64,000 nt of DNA, from assembly GCF_032062105.1 (NCBI RefSeq), contig NW_026936630.1, forward strand, positions 1-64,000. The letters run 5' to 3'. How positions within the stretch are numbered: position 1 is the stretch's first letter; every line of letters starts with the position of its first letter. Made by a program: the position numbers and the translations under genes. The DNA comes from Saccostrea cucullata (lineage: Eukaryota). Below, in pieces: positions 3,440 through 60,800 of the stretch. The notes beneath the pieces are model-generated. The model worked only from the letters and a program-made list of their open reading frames with translations, was not told where the DNA came from and searched no databases.

Positions 3440-5200
3440 CAGGTGACAGTGGGGTATTTCTACATAAATAAGAGAATTTGAATGATCGAGACGCTTAAAT
3501 AATCTCGTTTGTCATCAGGTGACGGTAGGATATTTGTTCATAATTAAGAGAATTAGACGATCGAGACGCTTAAATAATCTCGTTTGTCATCAGGTGAGAG
3601 TGGGGTATTTGTACATAAATAAGAGAATTTGATGATCGAGACGCTTAAATCACCTTGTTTGTCATCAGGTGACAGTAGGATATTTGTACATAAATAAGAG
3701 AATTTGACGATCGAGACGCTTAAATCATCTCGTTTGTCATCAGGTGACAGTAGGATATTTGTACATAAATAAGAGAATTTGATGATCGAGACGCTTAAAT
3801 CATCTCGTTTGTCATCAGGTGACAGTAGGATATTTGTACATAATTAAGAGAATTAGATGATCGAGACGCTTAAATAATCTCGTTTGTCATCAGGTGACAG
3901 TGGGATATTTGTACATAAATAAGAGAATTTGATGATCGAGACGCTTAAATCATCTCGTTTGTCATCAGGTGAGAGTAGGATATTTGTACATAATTAAGAG
4001 AATTAGACGATCGAGACGCTTAAATAATCTCGTTTGTCATCAGGTGAGAGTGGGGTATTTGTACATAAATAAGAGAATTTGATGATCGTGACGCTTAAAT
4101 CATCTCGTTTGTCATCAGGTGACAGTGGGGTATTTGTACATAAATAAGAGAATTTGACGATCGAGACGCTTAAATCATCTCGTTTGTCATCAGGTGACAG
4201 TAGGATATTTGTACATAATTAAGAGAATTAGACGATCGAGACGCTTAAATAATCTCGTTTGTCATCAGGTGACAGTGCGATATTTGTACATAAATAAGAG
4301 AATTTGATGATCGAGACGCTTAAATAATCTCGTTTGTCATCAGGTGACAGTGGGATATTTGTACATAAATAAGAGAATTTGACGATTGAAACGCTTAAAT
4401 AATCTCGTTTGTCATCAGGTGACAGTAGGGTATTTGTACATAAATAAGAGAATTAGACGATCGAGATGCTTAAATAATCTCGTTTGTCATCAGGTGACAG
4501 TGGGGTATTTGTACATAAATAAGAGAATTTGATGATCGAGACGCTTAAATCATCTCGTTTGTCATCAGGTGACAGTGGGGTATTTGTACATAAATAAGAG
4601 AATTTGATGATCGAAACGCTTAAATCATCTCGTTTGTCTTCAGGTGACAGTGGGGTATTTGTACATATATAAGAGAATTTGACGATCGAAACGCTTAAAT
4701 CATCTCGTTTGTCATCAGGTGAGAGTAGGATATTTGTACATGAATGAGAGAATTAGACGATCGAAACGCTTAAATAATCTCGTTTGTCATCAGGTGACAG
4801 AGGGATATTTGTATATAAATAAGATAGTTTGACGATAGAGACGCTTAAATAATCTCGTTTGTCATCAGGTGAGAGTAGGATATTTGTGCATAAATAAGAG
4901 AATTTGACGATTGAAACGCTAAAATCATCTCGTTTGTCATCAGGTGACAGTGGTGTATTTGTACATAAATAAGAGAATTTGACGACCGAGACGCTTAAAT
5001 CATTTCAGGTGACAGTGGGGTATTTGTGAGAATTTGATGATCGAGACGCTTAAATCATCTCGTTTGTCATCAGGTCAGGTGACAGTGACGACCGAGGCTT
5101 AAATATTTGTGAGAATTTGACGACCGAGACGCTTAAATCATTTCAGGTGACAGTAGGATATTTGTACATAAATAAGCAAATTCTGATGATCGAGACGCTT
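3440..5200. repeat. 75-bp tandem satellite, about 23 units, derived from a Penelope-like RT coding segment
   Basis: ATCGAGACGCTTAAAT recurs at 3485, 3560, 3635 and so on. The minus strand of a unit reads DKRDDLSVSIIKFSYLCTNILLSP and the array runs into LSPAYGVFISKLVR at about 3408-3449. Confidence 0.9.

Positions 5201-39862: not shown

Positions 39863-39940
<78 letters not shown>
39863..39940. repeat. (TA)n microsatellite
   Basis: Direct reading. Confidence 0.95.
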
Positions 39941-47864: not shown

Positions 47865-48098
47865 GTAACTCTTGAACTCGACTTGAATTAATGAACAGAA
47901 AGAATAGCTCGAAAATTTACAAATTCTAAAGTGCTGGGAACACTAAAACAAAAGGATTAAAATCTAAAGACTTAATTTAGACACAGGTAAAAGTCAGTAC
48001 AACAAAATATGGAGATAATAACAAAATGAAGCTCAAAACTAATATAAATTGAGAGTAGAACAAGCCCAGGCCTATAAAAACATCAGAAATAGGAGCAG

Positions 48099-49678
48099 GG
48101 GCCCGTTTCATCAAAGGTCGTACGCCTAATCGTAGAGCTACGCCGGCGTAAATTCGGGACTAGCACGAAGATTTGCATTTCAATAAAGAGCGTATCACTA
48201 CGCCTGACTAAATTTAGGACAAAATTTTACGTCTACTCATGGGTAGGCGTAAGTTAGGGCGTAAAGTTAAATTAAAGCCTTTTTTATTAATTTTAAACAA
48301 TTTAGCGAGTTCTAAAGAAAAAGTGCGTTTCTGAGAAGAATTTAAAATGCAAACAATGCATTGTTTAATTACACATATTATGAAGTGTGTATGTGGGGGG
48401 GGGTGTCTTACAACTACTTTGGGACGTAGTTGATTTGAGTAATTACGTACTTAATATTTTAATAAATTTCTGATGAGAAGAAAAGCTTGTCTTATTAGAG
48501 ATTTTTTCGATCACCATTTCTTACGTTTTGACAATGCATTCATACACATTTGATGGTATTGTACATGTTGTATGTATAAGGTATTGTAAATCAATATACA
48601 TGTACATACATGTGTATAAAACTATATTTCTACACCCCGCTTGAAAAGCGGGAGGGTACATGTAAATACTAAATAGAAATCGGGATGTCCGTCCGTCCGT
48701 CTGTTACGCTTTGGAGGTACACATCTCTATCCGAAACTCCTCTCATACCACTGATTGAAATTTGATGAAATTTTCACAGAATCTTTATTACATATTGCCA
48801 TTGTGCCTTATTGTACTTTTTGATCCGATACATATTTTGGTTTTCCTGCAGTAAAACATGGACACCGCCACTATATTTATATTGGAGGCGGGGGGGGGGG
48901 TATCTTTTATTGAACTCATTGATCACGGTACCTCTGGTTTCGCTTTCATCGCTTTCACTTTCACTCACTAAAAAGAAACCCATTAAAATTGTCTATTTAG
49001 AAAGGAAATATTTTCCCAATAACATATTTTATGAAAAAACAAACAAACAAACAAACAAAAATAATCGGTTTCAAAAGCATACTAATCCTCTTTCTGGTAA
49101 TTTTCTACATTTAAGAAAAAATTTCAAATAAAAAAAATTAACCCATCTTAAAACCAAATAGTTTTTTGTATGTTTGAAGAGTCCATTTCTTATTTACTTC
49201 TCGTCCACATGCGTAGATCTAGAGGTAGTCTGAGAGAGGGTTCAGAACCTCCCGAATTTGCAATTAACATTGAATGTACAGAATACTCAGTTAAAGACGA
49301 AAGTAATAATTTTCTAGGTATCTGGGACAAGTGAAGTTTCCGGCGAATCTAAGACGGAACCGAGGGAGGGGGGGAATCATAAACAATAAGAGATTTTGAA
49401 ATGGGGAAATATATTATTGCTTTTATAACATGAATTATTCCTAAACTTTGATGCAGAATACATCTTTAATTTTCATGAATTTGTTTAGGATTAAATTTTA
49501 CATACATTGTAGTGTAAGATAATCTGAGCGCATATAAAGCACATATAAGATGAAAATATACATGTTTTTGATTTCCTGCATAACTTAATTTTTAATGAAA
49601 ACAAAATAAAGAGTAGCTGTTACTTTTATTAAAGACAGAGACCACACAAGCAGAGAATTTTTGTAAGAATATCTTTGT

Positions 49679-49727
<49 letters not shown>

Positions 49728-50587
49728 GTACTTTTAAAACGGTACATTATACATTTAATCTGCAGAAAGTAAAGAATTTTTTTCTATATCTGCACGACCT
49801 ATAGTCTAGTAATTTGTAATTATATGATGAACCTTTGTGTCATTTTAATAAACAAAAACATTTTATGTTATAATGATTTGAATTGACAAAAATTTAATAA
49901 ATTTAGAGAGGATTAACTTACATGTACCTTAGTAGTAAACGTGTAAAATTTATTTCTTGACTCAAAATGTATACATAAAATTATGTAAACCGTTTGCATT
50001 TTGTATTCATTATTTTTGCTTGCTTTAAATCTTATTCTGCCTCAAACTTAATTTTAAGTATTTTTCAGTAGAATCAGTATTTATCATGAAATTTATTATC
50101 TAAGGCGAAGTCATTAACCTTAATCAATTTCGGGAAGAGAGGGGGAGTGGCTGTAATTAAAATTCCAAAATAAATAGTTTTGCTTGATTCCAAAATACAT
50201 GTACATGTACGGTCCTTTTCTTCCTTTTAATTTATAAGACTTTTATTATTGAAATGTTGTTAAAAAAAATAAAATAAAATTGGATTTTTACATTTGTGTC
50301 TCCTACATGACACTATAAACCCATGCATGTTTCAATTAGTGCAAGTATTAATAAATATAAAATTTGTGTTATTTATACATGTTTGTACGCATTGGGCAAT
50401 GTTTATGTTTTTGCGCCTGCGCAGTGCAACGTTGTCAAGGACTTAGTCCTGTGACTAAGCGTATCTTTTACGACTAGACTTACGCCACTTGGTGAAACGC
50501 TAATTACGCCCGACTAAATTTTGGCGTAAGCCCCGGAAGTACGCCTAAGTTAAGGCTTAACTTTACGACTTTTGATGAAACGGGCCC
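48099..50587. mobile_element. 2.5-kb non-autonomous Harbinger-like element (CWG target) splitting a minus-strand PLE fragment
   Basis: CAG|GGGCCCGTTTCATCAAA...TTTGATGAAACGGGCCC|CTG. The flanks rejoin to the PLE 3' motif, and ORF 50643-50906 reads ARACSTYKQFLKR. Confidence 0.75.
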
Positions 50588-51483
50588 CTGGTGTCGTAAA
50601 AGAGTAAGAATCCCTTTCGATGATTCATCCACTATGTGTTTCTTAGCATGATCGAGCAAACAGAGGAATCAAAAGACAGTATGACGTATGAAAATTTAAT
50701 GTTCTAACAATATGTATGAAAATGTCAGTCATGATAGTAATTGCTGACAAGCAGATCATTGTCATTGTATCGACCATTAAGTTTTCATTCAGAAATAATG
50801 ACATTAATCGAGTCCATTGATATTCATGTTTCAACTTGTTTGTCAACAGCTTGACTCGTTTTAGAAATTGTTTGTATGTAGAGCACGCTCTTGCACATTT
50901 AATCAACGGTGAAACATAAAATACGAGTAAAAATGGAACATAAATAAGGCAAATAAAGCAAAACTCGCTGAAAACTCAACTCCATCGCAATTTTTCTCAT
51001 CCGGATATTACTGTTTTCAAAGAAAGTGACCAGATTAGAGATCTCCTCGGATTAGACAGCATTTTAAGGATAGATGATACAAACAAACTTTTGTCAAAAA
51101 TTTTGGAAAAAAACAAATTGGGTCATGTTTTAATGATTAAAATGAGTAAGTTTCACCGCGTAGTTTTTAATTTTTTATTCAAAATCTCACAAAAATGGAA
51201 TTTGAGGTGAAAAATATTTGTATAGAATAAGAAGGATGGTTTCAGAGGGGTAGAATTTTGTTTACAATTTCTTGATATTCTAGAAATCTATTAGTTGCAT
51301 CATTTGCAATGAAATTAGGTAAATATATATACTGCTAGGAGACAGATTCCGTAGGTCGAGAGTTCAACCCCGGGCTGGGGCGGAATGAGTATCCTTGTAA
51401 AAAGTGAATTTCTCTGTGCTTTCTATATTAATATTCCTTCACTTAGAGCAGTTATATTAGTTTAAGAGTTGTTGTAATTTGTG

Positions 51484-51541
<58 letters not shown>

Positions 51542-51545
<4 letters not shown>

Positions 51546-52331
51546 TTATATCTTTTTTCACCAAAATTGAACAAACATTAACATTGAGAAATTAGCTAAT
51601 TTTTTATATATCATCAATTAGAATTTCTGTTTGCTTTGTTTATTGAGACTGAAAAATATGTGATTTATTGTCCATTATTGTCCAATTTGAATTTCCCTAA
51701 CTTTTACGCAACGTAGCCATACTATGACGTCATAGTTTACTTCCTTCCCTGCAAAGACTCTCATGACGTCATGACGTCATAGTTAACGTTACTAAGCAAA
51801 ACAATCAGTTCAATTTATGTACACCTGGGGTGCGTTCAACGGCGTATCAGCTAACTTAGCAGCTAAATAGTAGATATCTATCTCTATTGAACAGACAGCT
51901 AACTTAGCTGCTAAGTGTTATATTTTGAATAAAGATTTATCAGTAAAAACTTATTACTGGAACAAATAAAGTTTATTTCAGACGAAAATATATATTTAAA
52001 TTTACATTTAATTCACTTAGATATAGGAAATAACCCTCCTTTTTGTAAAAATCTTGAATGCTGCAGATTTGTAACCAAGGAAACCATCTTGGATTTGGGA
52101 CGTAGCATTAAATATTTATGCTAGCTCTCCATACGTAGCAGCTTGGTTAGCCGTCCGTTCAAGAGCGTAGCTTTACATAGCGGCTACGTAGCAGCTACGC
52201 TGTTGAACGCACCCCTGAAGACGGATTATGAAATCCAGAAAGCGCTTGTGTTAAATGAAATTTGGAAACTTCATTTTCTTTTTCTTTTATAATTATTTTC
52301 ACCTGTGTGACATCGACTGTGAACTATTTTC

Positions 52332-52334
<3 letters not shown>
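51542..52334 (+). mobile_element. Solo Penelope-like terminal (pLTR-type) segment between (TA)n tracts
   Basis: Three TGACGTCA motifs followed by a hammerhead motif, the same layout as the neighbouring PLE ends; (TA)n on both sides. Confidence 0.6.
51828..52214. mobile_element. Harbinger-like MITE with CTG TSD
   Basis: CTG|GGGTGCGTTCAAC...GTTGAACGCACCC|CTG. Confidence 0.8.
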
Positions 52335-52379
<45 letters not shown>

Positions 52380-53080
52380 AAAATTTAAATAGTGTCTCAG
52401 TAATCGGATAACAATATTAAAAAATGGTAAAAAGAAAACACAAAAATCCTCAGTTAAGCTTTAGCGCTTTCATTTTCAATCTTCAGAAGCTTATAATAGT
52501 ATCATAGTAACAGTGATTATGACGTCATGTTAAGCGGAACGTTAAATGTTTATTATGACGTCATAGATACAATATGACAAAAGTACGGGGAAATCACAAG
52601 TAATTTATAAAACACTATTAAGTTTTGGCTGAAAAATACTAATAAAATGTTTTTCTTTTTCCCGTCTCTGGATATCGGTGGCACAACTGAGTTTATAGAA
52701 AGGGAAAATTCTGAATTGTTTTTTACCACACGCCTCCAGGTGCGAACTTAATTGAATTTGTCTGTATTCGGGTGTACTAATGTGTTGCTTATGTACACGT
52801 ACACGGGCACGGAGAGTGTTGCCGGTTTCACCAATATAATATTCCTTGCATCCAGGACATGTGATGACATAAATGACATTTTTTGTATCGCATGACATGT
52901 TTTCTTTAACTCTAAATTCACGCCCATTGAAATTATAGCTGGTCCCTTCTGTAATGTATTCACATGTACCGCATCTAGGGTTCTTACACTTAGAGACTGT
53001 ATAAGTATGGTCGTTGAATTTGGAAGAACAAAGTATTCTCTTTAGGTTTTTGGGTTGACGTTTACTGTTGATAAAACGAC

Positions 53081-55291
53081 AACAAGTTACTGTCTAAGGG
53101 TCTAAAATACACCCCTACGCCTCAAGTAAATAATCAAGAGCTTAAAACGGATATAAAAGCTTATACTCGGCGACTCAGGCTACGTGAATATTTTCATGAA
53201 AGTGATACCAGTGAATCTGATTCCGAGTCTACAGACGCAGAAGAAACAGACCTTGTTAGAAACAAATCCAAGTTTAACCCAAAACGAGGAAGAAATAAAA
53301 CTTTAGATGCTGTTTGCGACACATTGGAAAATATTCATTTCCCAAATAAACCCAGGACTATTAAACCAAACCTTTCTAAGGAAGAAGAAAAGGCTCTTAA
53401 AAACCTCAGAGATGACCCTACCATCATAATCAAAGAGGCCGATAAAGGAGGCGGAGTCGTCCTTATGAATAAGGATTTTTACAAAAGTAAAATTTTACAA
53501 ATGTTGCAAGACAATAATTTTTATGAAAAATTGCGCAACTGTCATGAGAAGAAAACAATTACAAAAATAAAAAACTTAGTATATGGACCACTATCGGAGG
53601 GCTTAACAGATAAGGAAAAGGACTACCTGACAAACTTTGAATTCCGAGAGAGTCAATTCTATGGTTTACCTAAAGTGCACAAGTCTAAAATTATAAAGGA
53701 TGCCATAAAAGAGCAAAATAGTATATGTATTACATGTGCTGATCCCGCTGATTTAAGCTTCAGACCAATTGTAGGAGGACCGAACTCTTCAACGCAAAGA
53801 CTGAGTCATTTATTGGATATACTTTTAAAACCATATTGTCAAAAAGTACCCAGCTTTGTGAGAGACGATCTTGATTTTATAAATCATTTACCTACTCATG
53901 TCACCTCTAACACCAAACTTGTCACACTGGATGTTGTAAGTTTGTATACAAATATTCCTACAGAATTGGGATTGCTAGCTGTCAAATTCTGGACTGAAAA
54001 TTATCCCGATGTTCTAAACAACAGGTTTCAACGGGACTTCATCCTAGAGGCTCTAAAATTAATTCTAGATAACAATACGTTTGAGTTTGCAGACCATCAT
54101 TACCTCCAAATTAAGGGAACAGCAATGGGGACAAAAGTCGCACCTACCTATGCAACATTAACCCTTGGTTATCTAGAACATAAATTACATGATCAACTGT
54201 GTACGTTGTGGGGGATAGAATCTGCAAACAAAATACGGTCTAAATGGAAAAGATTTTTAGACGATTGTTTTATCTTATGGGAGGAGGATGTCGATAAACT
54301 AACGGAGTTTTATGATTTACTTAACCAAATGAATTCGGATATTAAATTCACGATGGAAACAGATGATTTGCAAATGCCATTCCTCGATGTTCTTGTAACA
54401 AAGGATAATACCAGCTTAAATACGGATATTTACTATAAACCAACCGACATACACCAATATCTGCATTTTGGATCAAGCCATCCCCATCACACTAAAACAG
54501 CTATACCATATAACCTCGCAAGAAGGATATGCACCATTGTGAGTAATACCAATATCAGGGATATTCGACTGGAGGAATTAAAATTATATTTATTAAACCA
54601 AAAATATCCAGAACAACTTGTAGATAATGGTATAAAGAAAGCCAAGGAGTGCGATAGAAGTCAGTTACTTTTAAACATACGACGTGCGAATGACGTTGAA
54701 ATAATTCCATTTGTGCACACGCATAACCCGAGAAATCAAAACGTGAGTTCAATTATTCATGAATTAAACAACCTACTTACAGAGGACGAACAAACGAAAA
54801 ACGTATACAAGAACTCTCGTTTTATCAACAGTAAACGCCAATCCAAAAACCTAAAGAGAATACTTTGTTCTTCCCAATTCAACGACCATACTTATACAGT
54901 CTCTAAGTGTAAGAACCCTAGATGCGGTACATGTGAATACATTACAGAAGGGACCAGCTATAATTTCAATGGGCGTGAATTTAGAGTTAAAGAAAACATG
55001 TCATGCGATACAAAAAATGTCATTTATGTCATCACATGTCCTGGATGCAAGGAATATTATATTGGTGAAACCGGCAACACTCTCCGTGCCCGTGTACGTG
55101 TACATAAGCAACACATTAGTACACCCGAATACAGACAAATTCAATTAAGTTCGCACCTGGAGGCGTGTGGTAAAAAACAATTCAGAATTTTCCCTTTCTA
55201 TAAACTCAGTTGTGCCACCGATATCCAGAGACGGGAAAAAGAAAAACATTTTATTAGTATTTTTCAGCCAAAACTTAATAGTGTTTTATAA
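53081..55291 (+). CDS. PLE reverse transcriptase + Cys-rich linker + GIY-YIG endonuclease; frame open from the inversion junction, no start codon at the junction
   Basis: LLSKGLKYTPTP, ADKGG, FYGLPKVHK, RPIV, LDVVSLYTNIP, GTAMG, RFLDD, CKNPRCGTC, VIYVITCPGCKEYYIGET. Confidence 0.92.
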   Translation, partial: NKLLSKGLKYTPTPQVNNQELKTDIKAYTRRLRLREYFHESDTSESDSESTDAEETDLVRNKSKFNPKRGRNKTLDAVCDTLENIHFPNKPRTIKPNLSKEEEKALKNLRDDPTIIIKEADKGGGVVLMNKDFYKSKILQMLQDNNFYEKLRNCHEKKTITKIKNLVYGPLSEGLTDKEKDYLTNFEFRESQFYGLPKVHKSKIIKDAIKEQNSICITCADPADLSFRPIVGGPNSSTQRLSHLLDILLKPYCQKVPSFVRDDLDFINHLPTHVTSNTKLVTLDVVSLYTNIPTELGLLAVKFWTENYPDVLNNRFQRDFILEALKLILDNNTFEFADHHYLQIKGTAMGTKVAPTYATLTLGYLEHKLHDQLCTLWGIESANKIRSKWKRFLDDCFILWEEDVDKLTEFYDLLNQMNSDIKFTMETDDLQMPFLDVLVTKDNTSLNTDIYYKPTDIHQYLHFGSSHPHHTKTAIPYNLARRICTIVSNTNIRDIRLEELKLYLLNQKYPEQLVDNGIKKAKECDRSQLLLNIRRANDVEIIPFVHTHNPRNQNVSSIIHELNNLLTEDEQTKNVYKNSRFINSKRQSKNLKRILCSSQFNDHTYTVSKCKNPRCGTCEYITEGTSYNFNGREFRVKENMSCDTKNVIYVITCPGCKEYYIGETGNTLRARVRVHKQHISTPEYRQIQLSSHLEACGKKQFRIFPFYKLSCATDIQRREKEKHFISIFQPKLNSVL

Positions 55292-55402
55292 ATTACTTGT
55301 GATTTCCCCGTACTTTTGTCATATTGTATCTATGACGTCATAATAAACATTTAACGTTCCGCTTAACATGACGTCATAATCACTGTTACTATGATACTAT
55401 TA

Positions 55403-55441
55403 TAAGCTTCTGAAGATTGAAAATGAAAGCGCTAAAGCTTA
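55403..55441 (+). ncRNA. Minimal type I hammerhead ribozyme (inverted copy at 52455-52493)
   Basis: TAAGCTT-CTGAAGA-TTGAAAAT-GAAA-GCGC-TA-AAGCTTA: 7-bp stem I, intact core, palindromic stem III AGCGCT. Confidence 0.8.
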
Positions 55442-55472
55442 ACTGAGGATTTTTGTGTTTTCTTTTTACCAT

Positions 55473-55548
<76 letters not shown>

Positions 55549-55549
<1 letters not shown>

Positions 55550-56450
55550 GTAAAAAATAACAGAACGCCGATTAAAACTCTACCGGTTTCAATTGTATCA
55601 TCAGGAGTTTGACAAATTGCTATAGATACAAACATTTCAAAGTATATTGTGACGTCATGTAACGTCAAAAGTGTTGCGCTTTAGTACAGTTCATTGTGAC
55701 GTCATTATGTTACGTTATTACGTTAACAGTTAGACAAATAATGCGGGAAAATTGTAAATTGTCTATTATGACAGGGCGTTTAGCTTTGGTTTAAACAATG
55801 AAATAAAATGTTTTTCCTTGGTTTCACGTTCCTTTTCGGAAGTCTTGTTATAGAACTTGTATATAGGAAACACTGTAAAATTAGGAAAAATGTTTTCAGC
55901 ACATGTTCTAATATGTCCGCTCACGGCAGTACACTGGTATTCAGTTTGACGAATTTGTTGACGATGGACACCCTAAGACACCGCATGACCGTCCATCGTC
56001 AACAAATTCGTCAAACTGAATACCAGTGTACTGCCGTGAGCGGACATATCAGAACATGTGCTGAAAACATTTTTCCTAATTTTACAGTGTTTCCTATATA
56101 CAAGTTCTATAACAAGACTTCCGAAAAGGAACGTGAAACCAAGGAAAAACATTTTATTTCATTGTTTAAACCAAAGCTAAACGCCCTGTCATAATAGACA
56201 ATTTACAATTTTCCCGCATTATTTGTCTAACTGTTAACGTAATAACGTAACATAATGACGTCACAATGAACTGTACTAAAGCGCAACACTTTTGACGTTA
56301 CATGACGTCACAATATACTTTGAAATGTTTGTATCTATAGCAATATGTCAAACTCCTGATGATACAATTGAAACCGGTAGAGTTTTACTCAGCATTCTGT
56401 TATTTTTTACTATTTAAATACTTGTGTGGATTTTTTTATCAGACTTTTGG
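55549..56450. mobile_element. Foldback of the 3' end of a second Penelope-like family (arms about 420 bp, 21-nt spacer at 55970-55990)
   Basis: The right arm encodes a GIY-YIG C-terminus (TLRHRMTVHRQQI...KEKHFISLFKPKLN); the left arm is its reverse complement; (TA)n on both sides. Confidence 0.88.
56350..56385 (+). ncRNA. Minimal type I hammerhead ribozyme (inverted copy at 55575-55610)
   Basis: AAACTC-CTGATGA-TACAATT-GAAA-CCGG-TA-GAGTTT; palindromic stem III ACCGGT. Confidence 0.85.
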
Positions 56451-56533
<83 letters not shown>

Positions 56534-57550
56534 CAATCCAGGCATCCATTTTTTGGTTTGTTTCATCTGTCCTTAAGCAATTGAATTTTTGAAATGGACT
56601 TAAAGTTTACAACGTTTTTCGGAGAACATGTAGAAAATATCCTGATTATAAAAGTTTCACTTTGTTTAATGCATTGCTTTCTTATGATCATACAGATAGT
56701 TGTCAACCGCAGGATCCTTACTATCTGACCGTCCAGCATGAGGGAAATCGAAATACAGAGAGGATTAATGCTGAAGAACCCGGAAGCGAATATCATTCTG
56801 GCAATGGCTTCTCACCCCTTTGATGAATACATAGATCCCTTTGACCACTTCACACTATGTAAAGAGTTCTTATATCAGTTATTCTTACATGTATGCAGTC
56901 CGAGTGATCAGGCATTATATCTGAACTGGAGAGAAATATTGAAATATACCATACATTACGTGATGAATTTGTTTACACTGTATTCTTTTAGTAAGGCAAA
57001 GATGAATTACTGGTAACTGAACACTTTATTTGATTGCACTTTCCTAATTTTGGTTACTGATTTTAACAGGGCAGGAAAACATTTGTCCCCTGAATTTTAT
57101 CTAGTCAGGTGCTGTACCCCAATCGGCTATATGGCCACCGGAGCTTGAATCTGTTAGAAATAATATTGTAATGAGGAGGTAGTTCTCTTCAAAAATTAAA
57201 ACTTTATATTAATTGAAGCCAAGGGAAAGATCAAGTTGGTTTTACTTTAAGAGTACTTGCCTAGTTATCTCCTGAAGTTTACTTCTGAACTGATGAGAGT
57301 TGTACTGCATGGGTAGGATATATAAATATATATTATTATAACAGTAACTTGATCCGAAGGGTCGTATCACGTCGAGTTGACAGGCGCAGATCATCAGATC
57401 AAACACCATGGATTGTGTAAAATTTTGACAATACCGAACATGATGTGACTTCACAAATGAAATAACAAGCCGGGTTGCGAAAGGTCAAGCGGCGCATTCG
57501 GCGTACGCCGGTATGACAAATGAAATCCTACCGATGTTAGTGTAGCGAGT

Positions 57551-57661
57551 ATGCGAGCGGATCTAACATCTAATTTTAAATAGATTGATGCGAGCGGATC
57601 TAACATCTAATTTTAAATAGATTGATGCGAGCGGATCTAACATCTAATTTTAATTAGATTG
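57551..57661. repeat. 37-bp tandem repeat x3
   Basis: ATGCGAGCGGATCTAACATCTAATTTTAAATAGATTG at 57551, 57588, 57625. Confidence 0.9.
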
Positions 57662-57811
57662 AATTCTAACGAAACTAATTTTTTTCGTCATTGCTGTTAA
57701 CAGATGGCGGTTGAGATGGGCGTTTCTGCTGCTGCAGTAATTGCTAGTACCGCCATACCCAGGCTGCTGAGATGGTCTTTATCCTCAATGAGCCGGGCAG
57801 TTCAGACCTTA

Positions 57812-57878
57812 AAGGGAGGATTCAAGTACCTGAAGGGAGCATTCAAGTACCTGAAGGGAGCATTCAAGTACCTGAAAG
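57812..57878. repeat. 21-bp tandem repeat x3
   Basis: AAGGGAGCATTCAAGTACCTG units (KGAFKYL in ORF 57704-57937). Confidence 0.85.
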
Positions 57879-60800
57879 GTATTAGGATAATAGGAGTCCA
57901 AATCTTCATTACTCCAGTTTACGTGAAAAAGAATTAGCGAAACCTAATTTTTTTTTTTGAAAGTTAAACTTAAAAAATGGCAATTCCAACTTTAAAGTTG
58001 GCTTTTTCAATAAATCGAACTTTAGAGTTGGAGTTGCCAACTTCAAAGTTGTATTTACATTTACTTACTTAAAACGTCAACTTCAACATTGGAATTTGCA
58101 ACTTTAAAAAATATTACGTGGTACGAATACCCTTCTGTAGTATACACTTATAATTGACAATGATATTTTTTTAATTGAAGACCATGTTCATTCAGAAAAT
58201 CTATCAAGGACAACCCTCAGCAGAATTCTCCAAAATACGAGTATTTCTTGTGAGTATACCTTGACATTTGTCTTATTCACTGTATACAAAGTGCTAATCG
58301 AAAATCTACTTGATTTGGATCACTAGCTATATTGCTTTGGGTACTCTGATGCATTATGGGTAAAAAAGAAAAATCTGCGGACAAAATATGGGTAAAAGTA
58401 ACTTTAAGAAATTAGGAAACTATTTAAACCTTTATAGAAACAAAGTAAATTTATTTGAGAAATTTTTTAGGTTGAAACATGTTAGAAATTCGATACCGTT
58501 CTCATTTACTAAGTTAAAATGGGATTTTTGCTCATTTTGAATTATTTCAATTGTTCTTAATTTTTTTAAACTATATTCTGTTGTAAAAGTTATTGTATCT
58601 AAGTTTTCACCTCAGTTCACCCACGAAACATCATCTGATTTCTATAAATTACGCTTTTTAGAGAAATTTAGCTATTCTTGTTTTGAGTGAATGCTATACT
58701 ATGTTTGCAACATATTTTTGCGATGGCTATACTTTTTTCGGATCCTTTTTGTGATTTGCATGAAATTAAGTTTTATTATTTTTTGATAAAATTATCGCGA
58801 TTTAAACAGTTTTGAAAAAATATTGGCGTTTATTATCACAAGAGAAACATTTATCAGTCGAAAGAAGTTAAACAGAAATAAATAATCATAGAATTTGATG
58901 AAATGTGCTATCATTGCTGGTGTTTGTGCGATACTTGATTTGCGTTTTGTCGTGATTGATACAGAAATGCTATGTTTGATTTGAGTAGAATACTTCTTGA
59001 AGAATGAAGGCGTATATGGGGGGAGTATAATCCAAAGACACTGTCTCAAGTTTATGTCATTAAATAACTTAATGATAAATACACGTAATATATTTTCACT
59101 TATGCTTTAAAGGTATGTAAACGGAAAAAAGGCTTCACAAACTATTCGAACTTTTTCCAAAGCTCATGATAGCGTAAGACTGAATGCGTTAACCACGATA
59201 TGCTACGGTGTCTTCTTGATGTTTGTGTGTCAGTTTGCTTTAAAGAAACGAATTTGTTGAGACAAATAATGTTTTTCAACCTATCATTTAATTTATCTTG
59301 GGTCGGTTTTTTGGGGCTTACTTCTTTTATCCAACTGTTTTACCTTTGTTTTTATACTAAATTTGATTATGAAATGCTCTGTTTACTTGATCAATACATA
59401 GAGCTCACAGCGGATGTGACCGATCAACAAGGAATGTTTACTCCTCCTAGGCACCTGATCCCACCACTGGTATTCCGGAGGAGGGGGGGGGGCGTATTTA
59501 TGCCCTGCTCACATGTTTGTATTGTTTGTATATTTTTCGACATAAATCAATGCTCATTATCCTCAATTTCTTTTCATTTCAGAAATATTCGATTTTTAGA
59601 TAGAATGGGTTCAGACGCCATTAAAAAAACACAATGCATTTACTTTTCCGTAATTTAAACACTAGACTTCGAATAGAAACCTGATCCGTTCATATTCAAA
59701 AATAAATCTTTATAGCTAGAATCATTAAATATAAACGTACCCATTTTCGACTAAATTACTCTAAAAACAATTTTCAATCAATATGTCTTTCAGAACAATA
59801 TATGAATCAAATATGTTGAAGATGACATTACCGACAACATAATTTTAGAAAAATTAAACTTTTCCGTCATAGAGCGGGTGATTGTCCTCGCCTTGTACAC
59901 TTTTTTTCTCTCTTTTATAAATCTATGATAAAGAGATTATAATGCAACTTTTGTAATATTTCACCTATTTTCACACTATATTAAGACATCAGAACTTTAA
60001 ACTAAGAATCTGAAACAGAATCTATAAAGATAAAAGTTTAATTAAAATTTCTCATTATATCCCCATAGACAGATCCAGAAAAGCGGCTATAGGTCAGGGG
60101 GTCAAGACCTGATAATTTTTTCAAATTCACTAAAATTTAAGAATATTAAAGTAACCATATCAAAATAACTTTGCCCCCCCCCCTTCCCAAGAAACACAAA
60201 CTCTTAACAGTCAGTCTACGATAAAAGAAGTTAATTGATTTTCAGGGATATGTTATGATTTCTATAAAAAAGATCCATGCATTTTTTTGAGAAATGTGTT
60301 AACCGTTTGTTTTTTTTTTATCATATGAACATTTTTTTAATATTCCATGCAATCTTTTCTTAACGCTTATTTGGCTGAATTGAAATTAGTAAATGAACGA
60401 ATCGGCATTAAGATTTGAAGTTGAATGCGTTTTAATCATAATAATCAAATCGAAATTTTGAATGCATATATATACCACTAAATATTTTCAAAACCAGGTG
60501 TATATGTAAAGTCTAAGAGTTGAAATCGATCTTTAAAATTGTTTAAAATTTTACAATAGTACATGTAAATTGGTGAGCGACATAAAAATTCTTAATTTGG
60601 TATGTTTTTGTTGATGAATGACTGTCATAAGTTGATAGGAAAACTGAGAATATATATGGAAGAATGTAGCTTGTCCACCAATTAAGTCAACCCCATCCCC
60701 AACCATAAAATAGGATTTTTGTGTTGGGATATTTAGTGTTAAGGACAGCAATGTAACCCCCTCCCGTTTCCCGAAGAAATTTATGCTTGAGCTATCCTTT

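What the first reader, a model, noticed from the sequence alone, without database searches (positions are those of the whole stretch)
51487..56530. Three different Penelope-like ends strung along (TA)n tracts, each with a hammerhead ribozyme
Seen: (TA)n, solo end, (TA)n, inverted end + RT/GIY-YIG element, (TA)n, foldback, (TA)n, with five hammerhead motifs of three distinct sequences. Known: PLE terminal repeats carry minimal hammerheads, and Neptune-type PLEs have a Cys linker and associate with microsatellites. Inference: one (TA)n locus was hit repeatedly by independent families. The intact ORF and near-identical arms suggest recent activity.
Basis: partly seen in the sequence, partly recalled or inferred. 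Interest (0 to 1): 0.7.

Follow-up and report, generated by a model that had tools for sequence, protein, structure and literature searches.

The report
Stacked Penelope elements regrowing TA targets
Four different jumping-gene pieces of a known kind sit stacked between long TA repeats inside a small DNA transposon whose other copies usually carry only a 7-base TA run at that spot, so each insertion likely leaves TA repeats that regrow and attract the next one.

Summary
The array is real. Four hammerheads are intact; A's is split by a MITE. B's ORF is 5'-truncated, not intact: full copies have an ORF1 overlapping RT in the -1 frame with a U UUU UUA/G heptamer (17 of 19 loci). Other copies abut (TA)n (A 47/48, B 30/39, C 28/34 ends; 0.125% of random windows). 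Ends sit at 3-5-nt TA-like matches, and 30 of 31 inverted pairs join one tailed and one untailed end. The array interrupts a TTAA-flanked MITE whose 29 other copies have only 3-13 nt of TA there. The two flanks of single insertions sum to more than free tracts (p=0.001), so TA is gained around insertions; slippage versus synthesis by the RT is unresolved. Hammerheads, TA bias, tails and inversions are published. This scan noted the frameshift and two-site priming in other genomes and the tRNA-like passenger in this one. Known kind, useful mechanistic footprint.

The parts
51068..51321 (.). Left part of host MITE (about 325 bp whole; 24-bp terminal inverted repeats; TTAA at 51064-51067)
   Evidence: 1792 first-look candidates in the genome
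51322..51330 (.). Short TA run (9 nt), left remnant of the seed site
   Evidence: 18 of 29 other MITE copies have 7 nt here, range 3-13
51331..51486 (+). Member D: 5'-truncated piece of a 349-bp tRNA-like tandem repeat, ending at that repeat's outer fixed end; no hammerhead found
51487..51551 (.). (TA)n tract 1 (55 pure nt plus AT-rich filler)
51547..52334 (+). Member A: 5'-truncated solo 3' end (last 9 codons of the endonuclease, 3' UTR, hammerhead, 41-nt tail)
   Evidence: 97% to full copy L127
51828..52214 (.). 387-bp MITE with terminal inverted repeats and CTG duplication, inserted at the helix I/core junction of A's hammerhead
   Evidence: the other A copies listed match without it
52215..52251 (+). 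A hammerhead core, 5-bp helix II, palindromic helix III, CUU site; helix I broken in this copy
52335..52377 (.). (TA)n tract 2 (43 nt; 71 in the other contig)
52378..53082 (-). Member B inverted arm: 40-nt tail, hammerhead (core 52486, site 52462), 3' UTR and endonuclease end
53084..55291 (+). Member B RT-linker-GIY-YIG frame, 5'-truncated (no ORF1, no start)
   Evidence: 98% to full-length L133
55292..55478 (+). Member B 3' UTR with hammerhead (core 55410, CUA site 55434), untailed end
55479..55549 (.). (TA)n tract 3 (71 nt)
55550..55969 (-). Member C foldback, untailed arm, hammerhead (core 55604, site 55581)
55966..56452 (+). Member C foldback, tailed arm (endonuclease end, hammerhead core 56356, GUA site 56379); 21-nt loop and 4-nt microhomology at the centre
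56453..56530 (.). (TA)n tract 4 (78 nt)
56531..56572 (.). Right part of host MITE (TTAA at 56573-56576)

Best explanation
This is a stack of four 5'-truncated Penelope-type pieces (three Neptune-type families and one non-coding tRNA-like repeat) at one TA site inside an older MITE, likely built by separate insertions in which the element's nuclease nicked (TA)n and the TA runs left beside each insert regrew and were hit again. Shown: the families, their ends, the TA flanks, the short ancestral site, the one-tail pairing and the 3-5-nt TA-like matches at both end points. Inferred: GIY-YIG nicks both strands of the self-complementary (TA)n; each 3' TA end pairs with a short AU run on the RNA at one of two fixed sites about 40 nt apart and primes reverse transcription; the two cDNAs join at their truncated ends to give an inverted arm or foldback; slippage brings each flank back to about 70-100 nt. 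The hammerheads would cut only as dimers. These copies are likely dead; the enzyme came from full two-ORF copies elsewhere, likely made by a -1 frameshift.
For: TA flanks: A 47 of 48, B 30 of 39, C 28 of 34 distinct 3' ends abut TA of 10 nt or more; 10 of the 16 exceptions are tandem read-throughs; background 0.125% of 25-nt windows in 600 kb. Two fixed ends per family with 3-5-nt template match to TA. 30 of 31 inverted pairs have exactly one tail (p=3e-8). Host MITE: 29 of 29 other copies have 13 nt of TA or less; at a second insertion (99+102 nt of TA) 7 of 7 homologous repeats have 9 nt or less. Summed flanks of 12 single insertions exceed 12 free tracts (p=0.001). Re-hitting: 30 of 108 ends face another Penelope-type end across the tract, against 1 of 22 sides of unselected tracts (p=0.025). 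Tract lengths differ between the two contigs of this locus. Published basis: tail = two RT start sites in vitro (PMC11167929, parts 1-2 of 4 read); linker, TA bias, inverted/tail structure (PMC8557442, passages and section 15); minimal hammerheads cut weakly and not as monomers (PMC4209133, parts 1-2 of 4); dinucleotide slippage threshold 4-5 units (PMC3812793, passages).
Against: Paralogs at 70-90% identity show the ancestral site, not the allele that was hit: free tracts of 73-132 nt without Penelope ends exist (8 of 12 in 1 Mb), so this site may have expanded first. 10 of 11 scored free tracts have no Penelope-type end, so these elements do not explain most long TA tracts. The unselected sample comes from long contigs, which may be poor in such arrays, and is small. 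Copy sets are the best 30 hits per search, so biased to young copies, and include this locus and its second contig. Tract lengths cluster near 70-105 nt, which may be an assembly ceiling. In the one in-vitro study (Poseidon clade) RT started at sites not homologous to the cut DNA (PMC11167929). The second contig is noisy across A and lacks part of D. The order of the four insertions cannot be read.
Confidence: 0.72

Rival explanations
1. The RT itself writes the long (TA)n at each junction, by repeated slipping on the short AU run or on the TA primer, telomerase-style, so short TA sites are hit and long tracts are born at once.
For: Very young insertions already carry about 100 nt on both sides (L006: arms 100% identical, 99+102 nt) where homologous sites have 9 nt or less; short runs outnumber long ones about 17 to 1 (206 of 8-11 nt against 12 of 20 or more) yet flank medians are 73-78 nt; every start site has an AU run; PLE RTs are sister to telomerase (PMC8557442).
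Against: Free tracts of the same length exist without the elements; some young copies have flanks of 11-25 nt or none; no added repeats were mentioned in the parts of PMC11167929 that I read; slippage alone can give the pattern.
Confidence: 0.15
2. The array arrived in one or two compound events, by template jumps between different RNAs or by copying a read-through transcript of an older array.
For: D sits next to C at several loci (L128, L146, L049, L134), so some co-insertion is plausible; all members are young.
Against: No other fetched locus repeats this series; neighbours vary among many hammerhead types; each inverted member has its own complete tailed/untailed pair; the MITE in A is absent from the other A copies listed.
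Confidence: 0.08
3. The array is an assembly artefact joined through (TA)n tracts and palindromes.
For: No contig or read spans it; the second contig is degraded across A and B's left arm.
Against: Two contigs give the same order between the two halves of one MITE and the same unique flanks; they share a private base in C's tailed arm; junctions are precise family ends.
Confidence: 0.04

Closest known systems
Neptune (or Nematis) clade of endonuclease-bearing Penelope-like elements (PMC8557442; passages and section 15 read, figures not seen)
   Same: RT plus C-terminal GIY-YIG, CX4CX2C linker, CCHH motif, GxKF/Y and DKG motifs, partial tandems, inverted truncated arm, tail at one end, hammerhead near the 3' end, microsatellite bias
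   Different: Full copies have a separate 360-410-aa ORF1 overlapping RT in the -1 frame (canonical elements are described as single-ORF; the Fig. 1 legend mentions an ORF1 frameshift but I could not see for which clade); multi-family stacks and net TA gain were not found described in my searches
Poseidon element PAc of Anolis (PMC11167929; parts 1-2 of 4 read)
   Same: Two RT start sites that bound the tail, both strands cut and extended, AT-rich targets
   Different: There the start sites are AC-rich and not homologous to the cut; here all eight have 3-5 nt matching (TA)n; the tail here reaches only the 5' UTR
Minimal type I hammerheads of metazoan PLEs (PMC4209133; parts 1-2 of 4 read)
   Same: Conserved core, palindromic helix III, short helix I; A has the unpaired base before helix II
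   Different: B and C have no real helix II and no G10.1-C11.1 pair; A has a CUU site
Animal non-LTR retrozymes (bioRxiv 10.64898/2026.07.22.740005; part 1 of 5 read)
   Same: Member D is a non-coding tandem unit of about 350 bp with Penelope-type ends
   Different: No hammerhead found in the unit; it carries tRNA-like A and B boxes (box motifs recalled, ARAGORN found no tRNA)

Membership tests
EN+ Penelope-like elements | RT followed by C-terminal GIY-YIG in one frame | tested here: met
   GIY-YIG above cut-off in A, B, C; RVT_1 above cut-off in A and C, not in B, whose RT motifs align with them
EN+ Penelope-like elements | Tandem/inverted structure with a 30-40-nt tail at one end | tested here: met
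   tails of about 40-42 nt; 30 of 31 inverted pairs have one tail
EN+ Penelope-like elements | Single ORF | tested here: not met
   ORF1 overlaps RT in the -1 frame in full copies; PMC8557442 Fig. 1 legend allows an ORF1 frameshift in some PLE type
Neptune/Nematis | CX2-5CxxC linker before the endonuclease and CCHH motif within it | tested here: met
   C-X4-C-X2-C, CxxC and two His conserved in A, B, C
Neptune (against Nematis) | Placement in the RT tree | not tested
   no clade-labelled reference sequences were available; database relatives carry no clade names
Hydra clade | CxCX5C linker, DKT, no CCHH | tested here: not met
   against PMC8557442 passages
Naiad/Chlamys | Endonuclease N-terminal to RT | tested here: not met
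Minimal type I hammerhead | Core CUGANGA/GAAA/NUH, helix I, palindromic helix III | tested here: met
   B (7-bp helix I) and C (6 bp) in both arms; A only in MITE-free copies
Minimal type I hammerhead | Helix II with G10.1-C11.1 | tested here: inconclusive
   A has a 5-bp helix II; B and C have 7-8 nt without it; no Rfam match
Minimal type I hammerhead | Self-cleavage | not testable with these tools
   needs an in-vitro assay; two-copy folds pair the palindromes for B and C
Programmed -1 frameshift | X XXY YYZ heptamer in the ORF1 frame inside the overlap | tested here: met
   17 of 19 scored loci (21 examined), roughly 14 families; 10 of 19 have no Met before the first RT-frame motif
Programmed -1 frameshift | Downstream stimulatory structure | tested here: inconclusive
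   only weak folds, -6 to -8.6 kcal/mol over 75 nt; pseudoknots not modelled
Non-LTR retrozyme (member D) | Hammerhead in each tandem unit | tested here: not met
   none by descriptor or Rfam

The most novel reading that the evidence does not exclude
Neptune-type enzymes prime by base-pairing nicked (TA)n to two AU runs on the RNA and lengthen the tract themselves during insertion, so each insertion manufactures the target of the next: self-feeding hot spots shared by many families and by a ribozyme-free tRNA-promoter passenger.
Probability: 0.18. Interest if true: 0.75.

Novelty: new member of a known kind. Interest (0 to 1): 0.42.

Why it matters
How Penelope-like elements form inverted/tailed insertions and why they favour microsatellites are named as open questions in PMC8557442. 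This locus and its relatives give testable footprints: short TA-like matches at both start sites, strict one-tail pairing, and a known short ancestral site with net TA gain. If the gain is made by the RT, a telomerase-related enzyme is writing microsatellites; if by slippage, it is a simple feedback that explains multi-family piles. In practice such arrays break assemblies and hide target-site duplications, and gene callers mislabel or truncate the RT frame.

Tried and rejected
Rfam: no hammerhead or other meaningful match in 48000-60000 or in D. ORF1: no Pfam family, no usable Atlas hit, 10 unnamed relatives at 42-100%. Locus-specific empty alleles: not obtained. Joints 51319 to 56551 in runs X5 and X24 fit the empty MITE but can come from any of its copies. 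Flank searches for three young insertions gave homologous repeats for one (L006), a second contig with a long tract running to its end for another (L062) and nothing usable for the third (L047). Contigs laid on L023 list no joint across the insertion; equal depth values on both flanks in run X3 hint at a short empty allele but this is not shown. A blind search for empty sites among fetched loci found only sub-arrays with long tracts. Two-template test: C's tailed arm has three linked bases of a minority variant (3 of 30 distinct rows), but the second contig has the common variant in both arms, so conversion or polishing is as likely; B's three arm differences look private. No target-site duplication could be measured. 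RNA: family B contigs occur in an RNA library and oligo-dT reads are few and on both strands, so transcription of this locus is not shown. No tree was built. Arkhipova 2006 and 2017 could not be read (one search fetched an unrelated paper). Searches with no paper holding all terms: Penelope + ribosomal frameshift + GIY-YIG + retrotransposon; Penelope + non-autonomous + tRNA-derived + bivalve + tandem. Supplements and figures of the papers were not seen and may bear on the ORF1 claim.
Full report
OBSERVATION. A strict type I hammerhead descriptor finds four motifs, two in B and two in C, against 0.0005 per shuffle and one hit in 1 Mb of unselected genome. The fifth core, in A, has lost helix I: a 387-bp MITE (51828-52214, CTG duplicated; most of 19 other copies have CAG or CTG beside their ends) sits between helix I and the core, while MITE-free A copies have the full fold. 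Rfam finds none of them.

WHAT THE PIECES ARE. The window is the start of a contig in a 1.17-Gb animal assembly; nearest named protein relatives are from rock oysters. A, B and C each have many near-identical copies (417, 203, 213 and 136 first-look candidates for the four end queries, 40 scored each). Full-length natural copies exist for all three; RT proteins of C and A are 49% and 47% identical to B. All have GxKF/Y, DKG, a C-X4-C-X2-C linker and the CCHH endonuclease motif, which fits Neptune/Nematis and excludes Hydra and Naiad by the criteria in PMC8557442 (passages read). No tree was built, so Neptune against Nematis is open. A is a solo end that starts nine codons before the stop; C is a foldback of the last 490 nt with a 21-nt loop and 4-nt microhomology; B keeps 2.4 of 3.76 kb, with one untemplated base at the inversion.

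B IS NOT INTACT. Full copies carry a 360-410-aa ORF1 that overlaps the RT frame by 52-187 nt, RT in the -1 frame. T TTT TTA or TTG lies in ORF1's frame within the overlap in 17 of 19 scored loci (21 examined, two had no motif match; the two misses are broken copies), and 10 of 19 have no Met before the first RT-frame motif. No strong downstream structure was found. ORF1 has no Pfam family. The legend of Fig. 1 in PMC8557442 mentions an ORF1 frameshift for some PLE type; I could not see which. This scan noted the same signal in other genomes.

A FOURTH MEMBER. 51331-51486 is part of a 349-bp tandem repeat (1304 candidates) with tRNA-like boxes (motifs recalled; ARAGORN negative) and no hammerhead found. 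Of 29 array rows, 18 end at one of two fixed points about 56 nt apart, in TA; 6 run on to a locus edge or next unit; 5 end elsewhere; inverted pairs use one end of each. It behaves as a Penelope passenger, as earlier notes on this genome said.

TA TARGETING. A 47 of 48, B 30 of 39 and C 28 of 34 distinct 3' ends abut at least 10 nt of TA; 10 of the 16 others read through into a tandem copy. Only 0.125% of random 25-nt windows hold such a run. Each family has a tailed and an untailed end about 40 nt apart, and at each the element's own sequence continues for 3-5 nt as TAT, ATAT or ATATA. 30 of 31 inverted pairs join one end of each kind (some rows may be internal junctions; p=3e-8). This fits the two RT start sites shown in vitro for a Poseidon element (PMC11167929), except that those were not homologous to the target.

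THE SEED WAS SHORT. The array splits a TTAA-flanked MITE (51068-51321 and 56531-56572). In 29 other copies (of 40 scored, 1792 candidates) the TA run at this spot is 3-13 nt, 7 nt in 18. The window now holds about 260 nt of TA in five runs; the second contig has 90, 55, 71, 75 and 83 nt. A second young insertion with 99+102 nt sits where 7 of 7 homologous repeats have 9 nt or less. In 1 Mb of fixed-offset stretches from long contigs there are 12 tracts of 20 nt or more (20-132 nt); 1 of 11 scored has a Penelope-type end. Summed flanks of 12 single insertions (62-201 nt; 15 loci looked at, one duplicate and two unclear ones dropped) exceed these (p=0.001). So TA is gained around insertions. Against over-reading: paralogs show the ancestral state only, long free tracts exist, the sample is small, lengths may be capped by the assembly, and no locus-specific empty allele was obtained.

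RE-HITTING. 34 of 112 ends face another Penelope-type end across the tract; 30 of 108 without four rows from this locus, against 1 of 22 sides of unselected tracts (p=0.025). Other loci hold two- and three-family stacks (L123, L130, L132, L136). The window is a rich example of a common pattern.

IS IT REAL? No public contig or read spans it. Contig C17117 has the same flanks (96-99%) and order, noisy across A and missing part of D, and shares a private base in C. I read it as the other haplotype.

MECHANISM. Shown: anatomy, ends, pairing, microhomology, short ancestral site, TA excess. Inferred: nicking of both strands of (TA)n, priming by pairing at two AU runs, joining of two truncated cDNAs (self-priming snap-back, as discussed in PMC3846280 passages, fits C equally well), regrowth by slippage (threshold 4-5 units, PMC3812793 passages), re-targeting. 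Hammerheads with palindromic helix III would act as dimers and were dispensable in vitro (PMC4209133; PMC11167929); in these opposite-strand, truncated copies they are likely inert.

VERDICT. New members of a known kind. Hammerheads, TA bias, tails and inversions are published; frameshift, two-site priming and the passenger were noted by this scan before. What this locus adds is a known short seed and evidence of net TA gain, which one word search of the scan's notes and my paper searches did not return. Interest 0.42.

Noticed in passing
L133:3689-7209, L134:4912-8417, L123, L357-L369: Two-ORF organisation with a conserved U UUU UUA/G heptamer in roughly 14 families of this genome; ORF1 has a shared W..W..PRK motif and no Pfam family
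   Followed up: yes
L187 (C14606) and L370 (C3756): A B copy with a 1018-aa open frame, and a tandem family with 1078-aa open frames: possible in-frame ORF1-RT fusions
   Followed up: no
window 51331-51486; L134:1-3195; L159-L177: 349-bp tRNA-like, hammerhead-free tandem repeat with Penelope-type paired ends and a T-run just before the next unit; often next to family C
   Followed up: partly
L123:2382 and 2657, L130:6207, L132:721, L134:9136, L136:5934-6673: At least seven further hammerhead-bearing end types face TA tracts beside A, B and C, some with canonical helix II, one with an AAUU helix III
   Followed up: partly
window 51828-52214; L146: The CWG-duplicating MITE is also inserted in a family C end at another locus
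   Followed up: partly
window 56388-56394; L032, L037, L146: Three linked bases in C's tailed arm match a minority variant and differ from the same arm in the other contig: conversion or polishing
   Followed up: partly
window 39863-39940: A fifth long (TA)n tract with no hammerhead nearby by the whole-window scan
   Followed up: partly
window 3440-5003: 75-bp tandem repeat, about 21 copies, 92% matches
   Followed up: no
window 57551-57662, 57812-57876, 57965-58050: Short 37-bp and 21-bp tandem repeats and an 80-nt hairpin
   Followed up: no
P0034, P0052, P0066, P0076: Close relatives of the RT are filed under bacterial symbionts of bivalves, probably host DNA in metagenome bins
   Followed up: no
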